Shown: piece after piece, positions 376 through 10,837 of the stretch
How the letters are laid out: each line of letters starts with the position of its first letter
Position numbering within the stretch: position 1 is the stretch's first letter
Assembly: GCA_950097015.1 (NCBI GenBank)
Contig: CATNEN010000001.1
Span: 1,674,001 to 1,738,000, forward strand
Source: Macrostomum hystrix
Lineage: Eukaryota; Animalia; Platyhelminthes
Length of the DNA stretch: 64,000 nt
Reading direction: 5' to 3'
Position numbers and translations under genes: made by a program
Notes under the pieces: generated by a model
Seen by the model: only the letters and a program-made list of their open reading frames with translations
The model's database searches: none
What the model was told of the DNA's origin: nothing

Positions 376-532
376 ATGTTTCCACCAATTCTAATCATAT
401 TAGCTGGTGCAGTCCTAGCTTTTCTCTTTATTCGCCTACTCATAGTAGAGTTGCAAGTATTTGGCCATCTGAACAATGTGTTTCATTCTAAAAAGGGTGC
501 CCAACTGAGGACTATGATTGTGGCTGGATCAG
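376..532 (+). CDS. ALG14: UDP-GlcNAc transferase subunit ALG14, exon 1 of 4
   Basis: ATG directly after ttgcag. MFPPILIILAGAVLAFLFIRLL (membrane anchor) ... RTMIVAGS-G, then a gtatgt donor (phase 1). Confidence 0.9.
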
Positions 533-613
533 GTATGTAGAGTTTATTCTTGCTTAATTTCGTTTTATTTTATTCTGGCATGTTTTAATGAGTATTTATT
601 GTATCTGATTCAG

Positions 614-747
614 GCGGTCACACCACTGAGATACTACGGCTAACTGGCAGTATTGGCAAGCAGTACTCGCCTCGGCTATATATTGTGGCCAGCTCAGACG
701 CTATGAGCCCTGAGAAGATTAAAATTAGCGAGCTCAATAGCGAAGAT
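614..747 (+). CDS. ALG14: ALG14 exon 2 of 4
   Basis: ttcag acceptor. Completes the GSGGHTTE motif and YSPRLYIVASSDAMS. gtaagc donor. Confidence 0.92.
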
Positions 748-834
748 GTAAGCAGCTTTTTGTCATTATTCTATTTTCTTATATCAAGATATTCAGATCA
801 TTCTCCACATGTCCACAATAACCTCACCTTTCAG

Positions 835-957
835 TTCTCCATCCACACTATACCGCGAAGCCGGGAAGTACTGCAGTCCTATTTGACCTCAGTGCTGACC
901 ACTCTGCAATCAGCTGCTTATTGCTTTCCACTGGTGGCCTGGCACAGGCCAGACTTG
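835..957 (+). CDS. ALG14: ALG14 exon 3 of 4
   Basis: tttcag acceptor. IPRSREVLQSYLTSVLTTL...RPDL motif. gtaaga donor. Confidence 0.92.
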
Positions 958-980
958 GTAAGAGAGACTTTCATTTCATT

Positions 981-1790
981 TTTAAATGTGGGATTTTACT
1001 TTTAAATGTGGGATTTTACTTTTAAATGTGGGATGTTACTTTTAAATGTGGGATTTTTTACTTTTTGCAGCGAGCATTCCAATTAAAACTGGTGTGGGAT
1101 TTCCGTTCAAAATGCAGTGGGATTTTACTTGACAACGGCGTGGGATTTCCCTGGTCAACTGAGCACGTGGAATTTCCGTTAACAACGGTGTGGCATTTCC
1201 CGTGATAATGGTGTGGGATTTCCGTTGACAACATAGTGGGATATTCCTTGACAACGGTGTGGCATTCCCTTGAGAATGATGTGGGATTACCCTTGACAAC
1301 GGTGTATGATTACCCTTGACAACGGTGTATGATTACCATTGACAACGGTGTATGATTACCCTTGACAACGGTGTATGATTACCATTGACAACGGTGTATG
1401 ATTACCCTTGACAACGGTGTATGATTACCCTTGACAACGGTGTATGATTAACCTTGACAACGGTGTATGATTAACCTTGACAACGGTGTGGCATATCCGT
1501 TGACAACAGAGTGAAATATTCCTTGACAACAGTGTGGAATTCCCCTTGACAACAGTGTGGAATTCCCCTTGACAACGGTGTGGGATTACACTTTGCACGG
1601 CGTGGGATTCCCCTTGACAACGGTGTGGGATTACCAATTTCAACAGTGTGGGATTCCCCTTGACAACGGTGTGGGATTACCATTTTCAACAGTGTGTGAT
1701 TACCCTTTGCAACGGTGTGGGATTACCTTTGCAACGGTGTGGGATTACCTTTGCAACGGTGAGGAGTGTGGGATTACGCTTGTGGCGCAA
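981..1790. repeat. Intronic 21-23 bp minisatellite (ccttgacaacggtgtgggatta)
   Basis: Fills ALG14 intron 3. The unit drifts along the array. Confidence 0.9.
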
Positions 1791-1817
1791 AGATAAGTTG
1801 AAGCCATTTGTTTTCAG

Positions 1818-2048
1818 ATCCTTTGCAACGGTCCTGGCACTTGCATTCCTATCTGCGCAGCCGCGTTCCTCTATCGCCTGCTGCTACTAAAAGACTGTCG
1901 CATTATATTCGTTGAAAGCATCTGTCGGGTTAACTCACTATCTCTGAGTGGGCGCCTGCTGTACTACTTTGCCGATCACGTGATTGTGCAGTGGCCCGAA
2001 CTGTTGGAACAATTTCCTAGAGCTCGCTACCTTGGTCGAATTATCTAG
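1818..2048 (+). CDS. ALG14: ALG14 exon 4 of 4
   Basis: ttttcag acceptor. ILCNGPGTCIPIC...IIFVESICRVNSLSLSGRLLY...VQWPEL...YLGRII*. AATAAA at 2199-2204. Confidence 0.95.
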   Translation: MLCNGPGTCIPICAAAFLYRLLLLKDCRIIFVESICRVNSLSLSGRLLYYFADHVIVQWPELLEQFPRARYLGRII

Positions 2049-2234
2049 ATCTCTCATGTATCTGCTGTGTAGGTTCATATTTTCCTTCTAAATGTGCCTT
2101 TCTACTAATGTAATATTCTTGTGGTTAATGTGAGTTATTTACTCTGCTGCTCCTTCTCTCTACTCAGTCAATATTGGAAGTAGTATGGTCCAGTCATAAA
2201 TAAATTTTGTCCTATAGAGATATTTAATTATTTT

Positions 2235-2720
2235 TGTACTGTCGGTATCTGGTTGACTTGTACTGAAATTGTACCTTTCCGTTGTGTACTGTAACTGTAT
2301 CTGTCTGTCTTGTACTGGAACTGTACCTGTCTGTCTTGTACTGTAATTGTACCTGTCTGTCTTGTACTGGAACTGTACCTGTCTGTCTGGTACTGGAACT
2401 GTACCTGTCTGTCTGGTACTGTAATTGTACCTGTCTGTCTTGTACTGTAATTGTACCTGTCTGTCTGGTACTGTAATTGTACCTGTCTGTCTTGTACTGG
2501 AACTGTACCTGTCTGTCTGGTACTGTAATTGTACCTGTCTGTCTTGTACTGATATTGTACCAGCCTGTCTTGTACTGATATTGTACCTGCCTGTCTTGTA
2601 CTGATATTGTACCTGCCTGTCTTGTACTGATATTGTACCTGCCTGTCTTGTACTGATATTGTACTTGTCTTATACTGAGAGTACTGAAAATCGTACCCTC
2701 CGTTGGTCTTACACTGAACT
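2235..2720. repeat. 26 bp minisatellite (tgtactgtaattgtacctgtctgtct)
   Basis: Tandem copies visible directly. Confidence 0.9.
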
Positions 2721-3883
2721 GCGCATCAAACTGTCCTGCACTGATACGGTCGCACTACTGCCAGTAGAGTCAGTTGATAATTTGAACAAAGCTTGTCATT
2801 TTTTCTTCAGTTTAAGTCTATTAAAAGATTATTGTGTTGCTTTCTAAATCGGTAGATTGCTTGCTGAATAATAGCAACATTGCGCCCCTAGAGACATATT
2901 TTTAGTCACTATTTATTAAATACTACTAATCCAATTAATATTGTTGTATGGATTTTTAACAATTTCACAGCTTCATGTTGGATTTCAAAAGCTATTTTGT
3001 GTTCTACCTTTGTTGTTAATCGTATCAAGTATTCACAAATTAATTTCTACTCTCCTATCACTTGTCGTATGTGTTTTTCAAGTGCTAAATTTATCGCTGT
3101 TCATTTGGGTGATAAATATTTACATTTTTTCATTGACCTGCTCAATAGTCGAGTAGGCTAAATTGCTGTGTGTGTGCTCAAAGCGAATTTCTTAATTAGT
3201 TCTGTCTTCTCTCTTCCTAGCTTATTATATTCTTTTTCTATAATATAATATTGAGCTCGCCTTATTGTGGATTCCAATGATTTTTGCCAGCTATTTTCTT
3301 TCATTTATTGCAACACATATTTTTGTTATATTCCATTAAAATAATCTCTCTTGTAGTCATAGTGGTGTTTATATACTACTGCTATATACTATACTACTGA
3401 TAAGCAGTCAATTTATGTTGATTTAAATCTTTATCATTAGTACAATTCTGTGGTTAAATTTATATTTATTATACATCGTATAATTATGTCTCGTATCCTC
3501 ATAATTTCTAATCATTTTAAGTTAATTTACTTAACTAGTACCCGCATTGCTATAAACTAAATTACTTTAATTTCGATTCTAATGTCGTTAAACGAAAAAT
3601 TAGTTTTCTCGTAAAACAAATGAGTTTTATAGAAATCCCAATATTGTTACACTGCCTACGTATACGAGTATTAATTTATGCCTTTCTTAGAAAATTCTAA
3701 GATATCGTTCCGACTGCTTTTCTTTTGTTAATTTACTGCATTACAACAAAGACACTTGAGAAAAAATATCTTACAGCTTGAAGCTGAATTGACTCGAAAA
3801 TAAACTTTTGTAGACTATTAATTCCATGCAACTGATTTTTCTATTCAATTATTGAATTATTTTAGTTTCTTTACCTGAACCAA

Positions 3884-6707
3884 TAGTTTAAGTAGGCAGT
3901 GAGTCATTGTAGGGTATATAGTTTAAGTAGGCAGTGAGTCATTGTAGGGTATATAGTTTAAGTAGGCAGTGAGTCATTGTAGGGTATATAGTGCAAGTAG
4001 GCAGTGAGTCATTGTAGGGTATATAGTTTAAGTAGGCAGTGAGTCATTGTAGGGTATATAGTTTAAGTAGGCAGTGAGTCATTGTAGGGTATATAGTGCA
4101 AGTAGGCAGTGAGTCATTGTAGGGTATATAGTTTAAGTAGGCAGTGAGTCATTGTAGGGTATATAGTTTAAGTAGGCAGTGAGTCATTGTAGGGTATATA
4201 GTGCAAGTAGGCAGTGAGTCATTGTAGGGTATATAGTTTAAGTAGGCAGTGAGTCATTGTAGGGTATATAGTGCAAGTAGGCAGTGAGTCATTGTAGGGT
4301 ATATAGTTTAAGTAGGCAGTGAGTCATTGTAGGGTATATAGTGCAAGTAGGCAGTGAGTCATTGTAGGGTATATAGTGCAAGTAGGCAGTGAGTCATTGT
4401 AGGGTATATAGTGCAAGTAGGCAGTGAGTCATTGTAGGGTATATAGTGCAAGTAGGCAGTGAGTCATTGTAGGGTATATAGTGCAAGTAGGCAGTGAGTC
4501 ATTGTAGGGTATATAGTGCAAGTAGGCAGTGAGTCATTGTAGGGTCATAGTGCAAGTAGGCAGTGAGTCATTGTAGGGTCATAGTGCAAGTAGGCAGTGA
4601 GTCATTGTAGGGTATATAGTGCAAGTAGGCAGTGAGTCATTGTAGGGTATATAGTGCAAGTAGGCAGTGAGTCATTGTAGGGTATATAGTGCAAGTAGGC
4701 AGTGAGTCATTGTAGGGTCATAGTGCAAGTAGGCAGTGAGTCATTGTAGGGTCATAGTGCAAGTAGGCAGTGAGTCATTGTAGGGTATATAGTGCAAGTA
4801 GGCAGTGAGTCATTGTAGGGTATATAGTGCAAGTAGGCAGTGAGTCATTGTAGGGTCATAGTGCAAGTAGGCAGTGAGTCATTGTAGGGTCATAGTGCAA
4901 GTAGGCAGTGAGTCATTGTAGGGTATATAGTGCAAGTAGGCAGTGAGTCATTGTAGGGTATATAGTGCAAGTAGGCAGTGAGTCATTGTAGGGTATATAG
5001 TTTAAGTAGGCAGTGAGTCATTGTAGGGTATATAGTGCAAGTAGGCAGTGAGTCATTGTAGGGTATATAGTGCAAGTAGGCAGTGAGTCATTGTAGGGTA
5101 TATAGTGCAAGTAGGCAGTGAGTCATTGTAGGGTATATAGTGCAAGTAGGCAGTGAGTCATTGTAGGGTCATAGTGCAAGTAGGCAGTGAGTCATTGTAG
5201 GGTCATAGTGCAAGTAGGCAGTGAGTCATTGTAGGGTATATAGTGCAAGTAGGCAGTGAGTCATTGTAGGGTATATAGTGCAAGTAGGCAGTGAGTCATT
5301 GTAGGGTATATAGTGCAAGTAGGCAGTGAGTCATTGTAGGGTCATAGTGCAAGTAGGCAGTGAGTCATTGTAGGGTCATAGTGCAAGTAGGCAGTGAGTC
5401 ATTGTAGGGTATATAGTGCAAGTAGGCAGTGAGCCATTGTAGGGTATATAGTGCAAGTAGGCAGTGAGTCATTGTAGGGTATATAGTGCAGGTAGGCAGT
5501 GAGTCATTGTAGGGTATATAGTGCAGGTAGGCAGTGAGTCATTGTAGGGTATATAGTGCAGGTAGGCAGTGAGTCATTGTAGGGTATATAGTGCAAGTAG
5601 GCAGTGAGTCATTGTAGGGTATATAGTGCAAGTAGGCAGTGAGTCATTGTAGGGTATATAGTGCAGGTAGGCAGTGAGTCATTGTAGGGTATATAGTGCA
5701 GGTAGGCAGTGAGTCATTGTAGGGTATATAGTGCAGGTAGGCAGTGAGTCATTGTAGGGTATATAGTGCAAGTAGGCAGTGAGTCATTGTAGGGTATATA
5801 GTGCAAGTAGGCAGTGAGTCATTGTAGGGTATATAGTGCAAGTAGGCAGTGAGTCATTGTAGGGTCATAGTGCAGGTAGGCAGTGAGTCATTGTAGGGTC
5901 ATAGTGCAGGTAGGCAGTGAGTCATTGTAGGGTATTTAGTTCAAGTAGGCAGTGAGTCATTGTAGGGTCATAGTGCAGGTAGGCAGTGAGCCATTGTAGG
6001 GTCATAGTGCAGGTAGGCAGTGAGCCATTGTAGGGTCATAGTGCAGGTAGGCAGTGAGTCATTGTAGGGTATATAGTTCAAGTAGGCAGTGAGTCATTGT
6101 AGGGTCATAGTGCAAGTAGGCAGTGAGTCATTGTAGGGTCATAGTGCAGGTAGGCAGTGAGTCATTGTAGGGTCATAGTGCAGGTAGGCAGTGAGCCATT
6201 GTAGGGTCATAGTGCAGGTAGGCAGTGAGCCATTGTAGGGTATATAGTTCAAGTAGGCAGTGAGCCATTGTAGGGTCATAGTGCAGGTAGGCAGTGAGCC
6301 ATTGTAGGGTCATAGTGCAGGTAGGCAGTGAGTCATTGTAGGGTCATAGTGCAGGTAGGCAGTGAGTCATTGTAGGGTCATAGTGCAGGTAGGCAGTGAG
6401 CCATTGTAGGGTCATAGTGCAGGTAGGCAGTGAGTCATTGTAGGGTCATAGTGCAGGTAGGCAGTGAGCCATTGTAGGGTCATAGTGCAGTTAGGCAGTG
6501 AGTCATTGTAGGGTCATAGTGCAGTTAGGCAGTGAGCCATTGTAGGGTCATAGTGCAGTTAGGCAGTGAGCCATTGTAGGGTCATAGTGCAGTTAGGCAG
6601 TGAGTCATTGTAGGGTCATAGTGCAGGTAGGCAGTGAGCCATTGTAGGGTCATAGTGCAGGTAGGTAGTGAGCCATTGTAGGGTCATAGTGCAGGTAGGC
6701 AGTGAGC
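3884..6707. repeat. 34-35 bp minisatellite (gtgcaagtaggcagtgagtcattgtagggtatata), about 80 copies
   Basis: Highly homogeneous tandem array ending about 50 bp before the RNMT acceptor. Confidence 0.97.
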
Positions 6708-6759
6708 TAATGAAGGGCCTCAGTTCCGCATAGCAACAAAACCTTTGCCCCTCTCGCAG

Positions 6760-7176
6760 GCGGGTCCAGACGTCGCGGAGCACTACAATCGAGTGCCCGA
6801 GTCCAGCATAGTGTCTCGCGCCGATTGTCGGGCATTTTACCTGCGCAATTTCAACAACTGGGTCAAGAGCGTCCTAATTGGCACCCATCTGCGCCTAGTG
6901 AAGGATCGTTTCTCTTCTAAGCAGGGCGAAGATAGCGCCGGCATTCGAGTGCTGGACCTGTGCTCTGGCAAAGGTGGTGACTTATTAAAATGGCGCAAAG
7001 GCGACGTCTCAGAAGTTGTCTTCGTTGATATTGCGGACGTGTCCGTGGACCAGTGCCGCCGACGCTACGGCGAAATGGTCGAGCAGCATCGGGACGGCGG
7101 GCACCGCGGCCGGCGGCTGTTGAAGGCCGAGTTTCATGTGGCCGATGCCACAGCCGTTCGGCTCCGGGATCTGCAG
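6760..7176 (+). CDS. RNMT: mRNA cap guanine-N7 methyltransferase, exon 1 of 3 (no genomic ATG)
   Basis: Acceptor ctctcgcag, then AGPDVAEHYN...FYLRNFNNWVKSVLI...VLDLCSGKGGDLLKW (SAM motif I)...VDIADVSVDQCRRRY. cag|gtgatt donor. Confidence 0.93.
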
Positions 7177-7902: not shown

Positions 7903-8195
7903 GCTTCCTGGCCGCAGTTTCACCTGGTGAGTTGCCAGTTTTCGCTGCACTACTGCTTCCAAAGCTACCAGGCAGCGCGTCAGTTTGTTCGCAACGCCAG
8001 CGAATCGTTGCTACCCGGCGGCTATTTTGTCGGCACAATTCCCGACGCCAATGAAATTGTCCGACGATTGCGTCGCCAACCAGGAAACGAGGCTTCGTTT
8101 GGCAACAACGTCTACAATGTGACGTTTAGCTCGGCGGCTGTTAAAACACAGCAGGTGCCTCTGTTTGGCTGCAAGTATCATTTCACCTTAGAAAA
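7903..8195 (+). CDS. RNMT: RNMT exon 2 of 3
   Basis: ccttag acceptor, phase 0. FHLVSCQFSLHYCFQS...LLPGGYFVGTIPDANEIVRRL...PLFGCKYHFTLE. gtgagt donor (phase 2). Confidence 0.93.
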
Positions 8196-8662: not shown

Positions 8663-9041
8663 TCAGGTGCGAGACTGCCCGGAGTACCTGGTCTATTTCC
8701 CGGTGCTTGAGCAGTTGTGCTCAGAGTACGGCCTGCGCTGCACTCTCCGTTTGAACTTTGCCGACTTCTACCGGCGTCACGTGACCGAGAAGGAGTGGCG
8801 CCAACTGCTGGGCACCATGCAGAGCCTCGAACCCTATCCCTGCTCCGAAGGTGTAGAGTTGAAAAGCAGCGTCGAAGGAGATTACAGGGCCGCCGAGGCT
8901 TTCCTTAGCGGCGAAGGTGGCTGCGATGAGGAATTGGGCGACGATGAAGCCAGGGATCGGTCTGGACCAATTGGGACGCTGAGCGGAGAAGAATGGGAAG
9001 CCGCCACGCTGTACATGGTGTTCGCTTTTCAGCGGCAGTAG
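8663..9041 (+). CDS. RNMT: RNMT exon 3 of 3
   Basis: aatcag acceptor restores the frame: NQVRDCPEYLVYFP...GTLSGEEWEAATLYMVFAFQRQ*. Confidence 0.92.
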
Positions 9042-9049
9042 CTCGCTGC

Positions 9050-10390
9050 CACGTGACTCGCTGGGACATTGATGGATTTTTGGGAAAGTCACGTGACACC
9101 TATACTGTGTGATATTGATGGATTCTTTTGGGAAAGTCACGTGACACCTATACTGTGGGATATTGATGGATTCTTTTGGGAAAGTCACGTGACACTTATA
9201 TTGTGGGATATTGATGGATTCTTTTGGGAAGGTCACGTGACACTTATACAGTTATACTGTGGGACATTGATGGATTCTTTTGGGAAAGTCACGTGACACC
9301 TATACTGTGGGATATTGATGGATTCTTTTGGGAAGGTCACGTGACACCTATATTGTGGGATATTGATGGATTCTTTTGGGAAGGTCACGTGACACCAGAT
9401 ACCTATACTGTGGGATATTGATGGATTCTTTTGGGAAAGTCACGTGACACCTATACTGTGGGACATTGATGGATTCTTTTGGGAAGGTCACGTGACACCA
9501 GATACCTATACTGTGGGATATTGATGGATTCTTTTGGGAAAGTCACGTGACACCTATACTGTGGGATATTGATGGATTCTTTTGGGAAAGTCACGTGACA
9601 CCTATACTGTGGGATATTGATGGATTCTTTTGGGAAAGTCACGTGACACCTATACTGTGGGACATTGATGGATTCTTTTGGGAAAGTCACGTGACACCAG
9701 ATACCTATACTGTGGGATATTGATGGATTCTTTTGTGACAGTCACGTGACACCTATACTGTGGGATATTGATGGATTCTTTTGGGAAAGTCACGTGACAC
9801 CTATACTGTGGGATATTGATGGATTCTTTTGGGAAAGTCACGTGACACCTATACTGTGGGACATTGATGGATTCTTTTGGGAAAGTCACGTGACACCTAT
9901 ACTGTGGGATATTGATGGATTTTTGGGAAAGTCACGTGACCTATACTGTGGGACATTGATGGATTCTTTTGGGAAGGTCACGTGACACCTATACTGTGGG
10001 ACATTGATGGATTCTTTTGGGAAAGTCACGTGACACCTATACTGTGGGATATTGATGGATTTTTGGGAAAGTCACGTGACACCTATACTGTGGGACATTG
10101 ATGGATTCTTTTGGGAAAGTCACGTGACACCTATACTGTGGGATATTGATGGATTCTTTTGTGAAGGTCACGTGACACCTATATTGTGGAATATTGATGG
10201 ATTCTTTTGGGAAGGTCACGTGACACCTATATTGTGGGATATTGATGGATTCTTTTGGGAAAGTCACGTGACACCTATACTGTGGGATATTGATGGATTC
10301 TTTTGGGAAGGTCACGTGACACCTATACTGTGGGATATTGATGGATTCTTTTGGGAAGGTCACGTGACACCTATATTGTGGGATATTGAC
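9050..10390. repeat. 48 bp minisatellite with GTCACGTGAC palindrome
   Basis: Unit gggatattgatggattcttttgggaaagtcacgtgacacctatactgt. Starts about 10 bp after the RNMT stop. Confidence 0.95.
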
Positions 10391-10837
10391 TAATTCTTAG
10401 AAACATCGCCTGACCTCCATTGTGATTGGCTGCGACTCGCAATGTAGATTCCATTGTTAATTTTGTGCCCGTTTGTATGATACATTCTGTCAGCTGTCAT
10501 CTCTGCTCTAGTTGTTTTCCGATATTTAAATGTGTGTTTAAATTTGGTAGATTATCCTAATTCTCTGCGTTAAACGCTGCTCAATTGAGAAAGCTTGCTT
10601 AACTACTTATTTATTTGGCCCAGTGAGTAATATGCGCGTAACCGCATTTACTAATTTACCTTGCAGTTGCTTCTAATTATTATTGTATTTCTTACTATGA
10701 AATAAATATTGGCATTTGATCTTCGTTAATTTGATTACACAATGTAGCTGAGTAACTTTAGCCCTAAAATTGCTGTTTATGTCTTAATTGCTTCATGTAT
10801 TTTCTTAATTTCAAATATTAACAATCCATTTTAACGG

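What the first reader, a model, noticed from the sequence alone, without database searches (positions are those of the whole stretch)
6703..7080. RNMT has no start codon: AUG probably supplied in trans by a spliced leader
Seen: there is an in-frame TGA at 6703-6705 and no in-frame ATG until about 7075, past SAM motif I. The frame opens in phase 0 exactly at the acceptor ctctcgcag|GCG GGT CCA GAC, four codons before the conserved VAxHYN. I found no upstream coding exon; a 2.8 kb satellite lies there. Known: flatworm spliced leaders end in AUG, which can serve as the initiator. Inference: the protein is M-AGPDVAEHYN, so the enzyme that methylates mRNA caps would itself depend on trans-splicing for its start codon.
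Basis: partly seen in the sequence, partly recalled or inferred. Interest (0 to 1): 0.8.

Follow-up and report, generated by a model that had tools for sequence, protein, structure and literature searches.

The report
Cap enzyme borrows its start codon
In a Macrostomum flatworm, the gene for the enzyme that methylates mRNA caps has no usable start codon in its DNA; its transcripts carry a leader RNA spliced on from another gene, whose final AUG sits in frame and likely starts translation, a trick already described for other flatworm genes.

Summary
Observation and reading both hold. The only RNMT gene found (exons 6760-7176, 7903-8195, 8663-9041) has no in-frame ATG before codon 106, past the SAM-binding motif. 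In 4 of 4 public contig sets (one study) the spliced transcript begins with 22 non-local letters plus G joined at 6760, giving ATG-GCG in frame; no other 5' end appeared. The leader is absent from the window, occurs 33 times elsewhere, and lies in SL RNA genes with a GT donor. All three M. lignano records start at the same residue without Met. The mechanism is known in flatworms. RNMT is not unique here: LSm2 does the same, while 17 of 19 Sm/LSm matches, the capping enzyme and RAM have their own ATG. Schistosoma RNMT shows 0 leader reads. Initiation at the leader AUG is inferred; feedback is untested. The scan noted leader-supplied AUGs before on other DNA. In passing: SL and U1 genes sit inside the 45S rDNA repeat.

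The parts
6760..7176 (+). RNMT exon 1 (139 codons), begins at the trans-splice site; contains VAEHYN and the SAM-binding motif; no in-frame ATG until codon 106
   Evidence: Pfam PF03291 E 6.8e-34; covered end to end by contigs in 4 of 4 runs
6745..6759 (+). Trans-splice acceptor (pyrimidine-rich stretch and CAG); fits the published Macrostomum motif YTNCAG only in part (CTCGCAG)
   Evidence: Leader joined here in 4 of 4 runs; motif from PMC8629364
6707..6759 (+). Non-repeat end of the outron; absent from the mature transcript contigs
   Evidence: Depth 0 over 6707-6757 in all four runs, with a loose end at 6759; outron role inferred
6703..6705 (+). In-frame TGA closing the genomic frame upstream
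3883..6706 (+). 35-nt satellite, 81.6 copies, no ATG, about 80 donor-like GTGAG(T/C) words, the last at 6702
7075..7077 (+). First genomic in-frame ATG (codon 106); starting here would give a 257-aa product lacking the SAM-binding motif
7903..8195 (+). RNMT exon 2
   Evidence: Exon 1-2 junction seen in contigs; PF03291 positions 141-234
8663..9041 (+). RNMT exon 3 with stop codon
   Evidence: PF03291 positions 232-314; GT-AG junction keeps the frame; junction not seen in reads
376..2048 (+). ALG14 gene, four exons, same strand, own ATG directly behind an AG acceptor; possible upstream partner in an operon
   Evidence: Pfam PF08660 E 2.8e-31; gene model from GT-AG fitting; operon link untested

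Best explanation
This is the cap guanine-N7 methyltransferase (RNMT) gene of a Macrostomum flatworm, whose transcripts receive the spliced leader at 6760, and the leader's terminal AUG, in frame with exon 1, is likely the codon at which translation starts. Shown: the gene has no in-frame ATG before codon 106; the leader-exon join and exon 1-2 splicing are in transcript contigs; the leader is encoded by SL RNA genes elsewhere. Inferred: ribosomes scan the short leader (about 42 nt) and initiate at its only AUG, giving a 363-aa enzyme with just four residues between Met and VAEHYN; an mRNA without the leader would give at best a 257-aa fragment without the SAM-binding motif, so the enzyme's supply depends on trans-splicing. 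The genomic ATG was likely lost because the leader made it redundant, before the split from M. lignano. It is one of a minority class of such genes (LSm2 is another), not a dedicated circuit.
For:: 4 of 4 contig sets have the same 22-letter loose end before 6759, matching the published M. lignano leader (PMC8629364), and are spliced at 7176/7903, so they are mRNA-derived; 33 exact hits in the genome, 0 in the window with up to 3 mismatches; the nearest listed hit on the same contig is 14 Mb away; 6 of 12 fetched loci continue ATG-GTAAG and fold into hairpins (z -3.4, 0 of 200 shuffles); one RNMT locus; 3 of 3 M. lignano records start AGQEVAQHYN with no Met, two named 'partial'. LSm2 exon starts at residue 2 of human LSm2 and carries the leader in 4 of 4 runs. 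Literature passages: PMC3510090 (143 of 187 leader-bearing E. granulosus clusters full length from the leader ATG).
Against: All four runs are one study, kept as contigs that drop rare forms, with library type not on record, so a minor cis-spliced form is not excluded. No ribosome or protein data. The leader AUG has a pyrimidine at -3, a weaker context by the vertebrate rule (recalled). The M. lignano evidence is indirect: Met-less protein records, no reads seen. S. mansoni RNMT shows 0 leader counts in both data sets, so the arrangement is not flatworm-wide.
Confidence: 0.92

Rival explanations
1. The dependence is a selected feedback loop: RNMT makes the m7G cap that is hypermethylated on SL RNA, and SL RNA supplies RNMT's start codon, so cap methylation capacity tracks trans-splicing capacity.
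For: Single-copy gene with the same Met-less start in M. lignano; the second confirmed case, LSm2, is also an RNA-processing factor, and an LSm1-like exon is a third candidate. m7G as precursor of the trimethyl cap is established knowledge, not tested here.
Against: The sample was drawn only from RNA-processing genes, so it cannot show enrichment. Capping enzyme and RAM have a genomic ATG, as do 17 of 19 Sm/LSm matches. Not shared with S. mansoni. No functional enrichment among trans-spliced E. granulosus cDNAs (PMC3510090 passage). Loss of a redundant ATG is hard to reverse, which explains conservation without selection.
Confidence: 0.1
2. A cis-spliced form also matters: an upstream donor (ALG14 exon 2 or 3, or an unseen exon) joins 6760 and brings a genomic ATG in some tissues.
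For: ALG14 donors after 747 and 957 are both phase 0 and would splice in frame to 6760; the satellite offers about 80 donor-like words, the last 58 nt before the exon; contigs lose rare forms.
Against: No loose end other than the leader in 4 of 4 runs; no ATG in the satellite and no candidate ATG exon in 2050-6740; ALG14 has its own last exon, stop and AATAAA at 2199.
Confidence: 0.05
3. The leader AUG is bypassed and the protein starts at a near-cognate codon or at codon 106.
For: Pyrimidine at -3 of the leader AUG; an in-frame GTG at 6793.
Against: Starting at 6793 drops the invariant VA-HYN residues and starting at 7075 drops the SAM-binding motif; G at +4; LSm2 needs exactly one Met at the join; the genomic near-cognate codons 6730 and 6745 are not in the mature transcript.
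Confidence: 0.03

Closest known systems
[quoted passage not shown] 2006, not held; known to me as cited in PMC3510090, PMC12582326, PMC5832876, PMC9851317, PMC7653826)
   Same: Leader ends in AUG, joined in frame to an exon that lacks its own start; required for a full-length conserved protein, as for 4 of 8 tabulated E. granulosus cDNAs (PMC3510090 passage).
   Different: Those cases are in parasitic flatworms; I found no named case for RNMT or for a Macrostomum gene in my searches. S. mansoni RNMT is not trans-spliced in the one data set seen.
Macrostomum SL trans-splicing (PMC8629364, parts 1-3 of 4 read; PMC10468722, passages)
   Same: Same leader sequence, SL RNA gene with GTAAG donor and three hairpins; 10-30% of genes trans-spliced; PMC10468722 notes that the leader likely contains the start ATG.
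   Different: Neither text, as far as read, counts genes that need the leader AUG or places SL genes in rDNA; donor-less genomic copies here suggest a leader of about 45 nt rather than the 35 nt used in PMC8629364.
Animal RNMT (Pfam PF03291; human structures 3bgv, 5e8j, 8q69)
   Same: VAxHYN, FYLRNFNNW, DLxxGKGGD, SCQFxxHY and C-terminal GTLSxxEWE motifs all present.
   Different: Shortest N-terminus in the alignment: 5 residues including Met before VAEHYN, against 11-149 in the nine non-flatworm homologs aligned; several molluscs and nematodes are also short, so this is a difference of degree.

Membership tests
SL trans-spliced gene | Non-genomic leader on the 5' end of the mature transcript at an AG acceptor | tested here: met
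   4 of 4 contig sets, one study; leader absent from the window
SL trans-spliced gene | Leader encoded by a separate SL RNA gene with a GT donor and hairpin structure | tested here: met
   33 hits; 6 of 12 fetched loci have the donor; z -3.4
SL trans-spliced gene | Trimethylguanosine cap on the mRNA | not testable with these tools
   Needs cap analysis or anti-TMG pull-down
Gene using the leader AUG as initiator | Leader AUG in frame with the main ORF | tested here: met
   Join at 6759/6760, phase 0
Gene using the leader AUG as initiator | No genomic in-frame AUG that could give the conserved protein | tested here: met
   First is codon 106, after invariant motifs
Gene using the leader AUG as initiator | Ribosomes initiate at the leader AUG | not testable with these tools
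   No ribosome profiling or proteomics available
RNMT (cap guanine-N7 methyltransferase) | PF03291 domain over cut-off with SAM- and cap-binding motifs, intact frame | tested here: met
RNMT (cap guanine-N7 methyltransferase) | Methylates GpppN caps | not testable with these tools
   Inferred from homology only
Downstream gene of a Macrostomum operon (PMC8629364 criterion) | Same-strand upstream neighbour within 1 kb after repeats are subtracted | tested here: inconclusive

The most novel reading that the evidence does not exclude
In Macrostomum the trans-splicing system controls its own upstream supply: RNMT (which caps SL RNA precursors), LSm2 and possibly LSm1 can be translated only when the leader donates their AUG, so any fall in SL RNA cuts cap methylation and U6/decay complexes in a selected feedback loop, with SL RNA output itself tied to the ribosomal DNA array in which the SL and U1 genes are embedded.
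Probability: 0.1. Interest if true: 0.7.

Novelty: new member of a known kind. Interest (0 to 1): 0.38.

Why it matters
It is a clean, transcript-supported case of an essential single-copy enzyme whose first codon is not in its gene. That matters for annotation (the M. lignano records are filed as 'partial') and gives a ready reporter in the one flatworm genus with transgenesis (PMC8629364) to test whether the leader's invariant AUG is kept because such genes need it. The mechanism itself has been in print since 2006, so the surprise is modest; the feedback reading would raise it but has little support.

Tried and rejected
No RNA holder was listed by record in the run search; the four holders proved to be spliced contigs. 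A cis upstream ATG exon: none in contigs or in a donor scan. A paralog with its own ATG: none. 'The whole capping machinery depends on the leader AUG': rejected, the capping enzyme and RAM have in-frame genomic ATGs; TGS1 was located but its 5' end lay outside the fetched stretch. Flatworm-wide conservation: no other flatworm RNMT was among the 120 listed of 715 hits or the 2 hits of a C-terminal search; S. mansoni counts are 0. My first ALG14 model had a wrong exon 3 acceptor, corrected. Cheng 2006 and one further Macrostomum paper were not held. The supplement of PMC12582326 was too large to read; it may list RNMT among trans-spliced targets in parasitic flatworms. Searches for a published RNMT feedback or SL genes in 45S rDNA found nothing relevant; the library lacks most subscription papers.

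Full report
Observation. The coordinates hold. There is an in-frame TGA at 6703-6705, an acceptor ending at 6759, and a frame from 6760 that reads AGPDVAEHYN and meets its first ATG at 7075, codon 106. The frame is open for 18 codons before the acceptor, without ATG. Three exons (6760-7176, 7903-8195, 8663-9041) joined at GT-AG boundaries give 362 codons and a stop. They match PF03291 positions 13-314 and are the only matches in the genome, 3 of 3 candidates scored. The upstream satellite (3883-6706) has no ATG, and no consensus donor in 2050-6740 has a phase-0 ATG frame.

Transcripts. Four public runs of one study hold the stretch, kept as assembled contigs with library type not on record. 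Each gave one contig covering 6759-7177 without mismatch, with the same 22 loose letters in front and the start of exon 2 behind. The exon 1-2 join shows that they derive from spliced RNA. The loose letters end in CAT, and the G at 6759 is shared between the acceptor AG and the leader, so the transcript reads ATG then GCG, in frame. No other 5' end and no cover of 6707-6757 was seen. Limits: one study, and contigs drop rare forms.

The leader comes from elsewhere. The 22 letters equal the 3' part of the published M. lignano leader (PMC8629364). They are absent from the window with up to 3 mismatches and occur 33 times exactly in the genome, 0 times for the reversed control. Of 12 loci fetched, 6 continue ATG-GTAAG into an identical sequence that folds into hairpins around a U-rich stretch (z -3.4, 0 of 200 shuffles): SL RNA genes. 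The other 6 lack the donor and look like retro-copies; four share 5' letters back to about 45 nt from the 3' end, which suggests the true leader length (inference).

Conservation. The best homolog is M. lignano BOX15_Mlig024127, 74% identical over exon 1, so the genome is a Macrostomum other than M. lignano (inference). All 3 members of that cluster begin AGQEVAQHYN without Met, two named 'partial': the same first residue as here, as expected if an annotation pipeline trimmed the leader. I saw no M. lignano reads. In S. mansoni the cap methyltransferase Smp_038940 has 0 leader counts in both data sets, while the capping enzyme has 189 and 1 (supplement 5 of PMC5832876, rows seen); that trap used cercariae, so a zero is good but not complete evidence. 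The dependence looks lineage-limited.

Is RNMT special? I sampled genes whose N-termini are easy to place. 17 of 19 Sm/LSm matches have an in-frame Met in the same open frame upstream of the domain (one of the 17 is a partial match). The two without are LSm2 and an LSm1-like gene. LSm2's exon starts at residue 2 of human LSm2 and carries the leader in phase 0 in 4 of 4 runs: a second confirmed case. The LSm1-like gene has a Met-free phase-0 upstream exon, untested. The capping enzyme and RAM have their own ATG. So leader-supplied starts are a recurring minority here; this sample was all RNA-processing genes and says nothing on enrichment.

Mechanism. Shown: gene structure, missing ATG, leader join, SL RNA genes. 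Inferred: the spliceosome joins the leader to the unpaired acceptor, the mRNA inherits the leader's cap, and ribosomes initiate at the leader's single AUG (G at +4, pyrimidine at -3). Bypassing it leads to an out-of-frame AUG (12 codons) and then codon 106, whose 257-aa product lacks the invariant VA-HYN, FYLRNFNNW and DLxxGKGGD residues. The Met would likely be removed before Ala (established rule, recalled). The simplest history is that a phase-0 acceptor next to the start made the genomic ATG redundant; ALG14, whose ATG sits directly behind an AG, may show the intermediate state, untested.

Context. ALG14 (376-2048) lies upstream on the same strand, 4711 nt from the acceptor, 1473 nt without tandem repeats, above the 1 kb operon threshold of PMC8629364; an operon is possible, not shown. 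Its exon 2 and 3 donors are phase 0 and the satellite is rich in donor-like words, yet no cis product was seen. An upstream donor is reported to favour cis over trans splicing (PMC8629364 introduction), so either transcription starts late in the satellite or these words are ignored; unresolved.

What is known. Use of the flatworm leader AUG as initiator was reported in 2006 (not held; seen as cited). In E. granulosus 143 of 187 leader-bearing clusters were full length from the leader ATG, and no function was enriched (PMC3510090 passages). A Macrostomum genome paper notes that the leader likely contains the start codon (PMC10468722 passage). Four searches gave no paper naming RNMT as such a gene; an unreadable supplement may bear on this. 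Earlier notes of this scan describe the same idea on other DNA; they did not change my reading. Papers seen: PMC8629364 parts 1-3 of 4; PMC9851317 part 1 of 4; passages of PMC12582326, PMC3510090, PMC5832876, PMC10468722, PMC7653826; supplement rows of PMC5832876; a term search of the PMC3510090 supplements with no relevant hit.

Verdict. Real, transcript-supported, probably shared within Macrostomum, and a new member of a known kind. Interest 0.38. The feedback reading is not excluded (probability 0.1). The placement of SL and U1 genes inside the 45S rDNA repeat may deserve its own follow-up.

Noticed in passing
L041 (G000:C17:2500-12499) and L042; also arrays on C15 and C42: The SL RNA gene and a U1 snRNA gene lie in the spacer of the 45S rDNA repeat, all on one strand in the order 18S-5.8S-28S, about 2 kb, U1, about 300 nt, SL RNA. 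18 of 33 leader hits are on these three contigs; 10 of 15 spacings are 11.6-11.7 kb. One unit was scanned in full; four other loci are 99.9-100% identical to it over their flanks. Searches found no report of this layout.
   Followed up: partly
L044:6855-7172 (G000:C1 near 14.9 Mb): LSm2 lacks a genomic start codon and receives the leader's AUG as Met1 in 4 of 4 runs. A helitron-like element lies about 1.6 kb upstream on the other strand (name recalled from its motifs).
   Followed up: yes
L035 (G000:C11:4903509-4906700, minus strand): LSm1-like gene whose glutamine-rich upstream exon starts in phase 0 at a strong acceptor and has no Met: a third candidate for a leader-supplied start.
   Followed up: partly
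L003-L008: Six genomic copies of the leader without the GT donor, likely retro-copies of trans-spliced RNA; two lie 5 kb apart with the same continuation.
   Followed up: no
window 376-2048: ALG14 gene; its ATG lies directly behind an AG acceptor, so a leader joined there would give Met-Met.
   Followed up: partly
window 3883-6706: The satellite unit carries a consensus-like 5' splice site (68 GTGAGT and 13 GTGAGC), ending about 55 nt before a trans-splice acceptor, without visible cis splicing.
   Followed up: partly
window 9062-10389: A 48-nt tandem array starts 20 nt after the RNMT stop; the first AATAAA follows at 10701, so the 3' UTR may be largely repeat or contain an intron.
   Followed up: no
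L014-L015 (20 kb upstream of the window): An RFX-like transcription factor gene on the same strand ends about 5 kb before ALG14 (name recalled from its motifs).
   Followed up: no
L020/L022 and L032/L034: Two Sm genes (SmG-like and SmE-like, names recalled) are each present as two diverged copies on different contigs.
   Followed up: no
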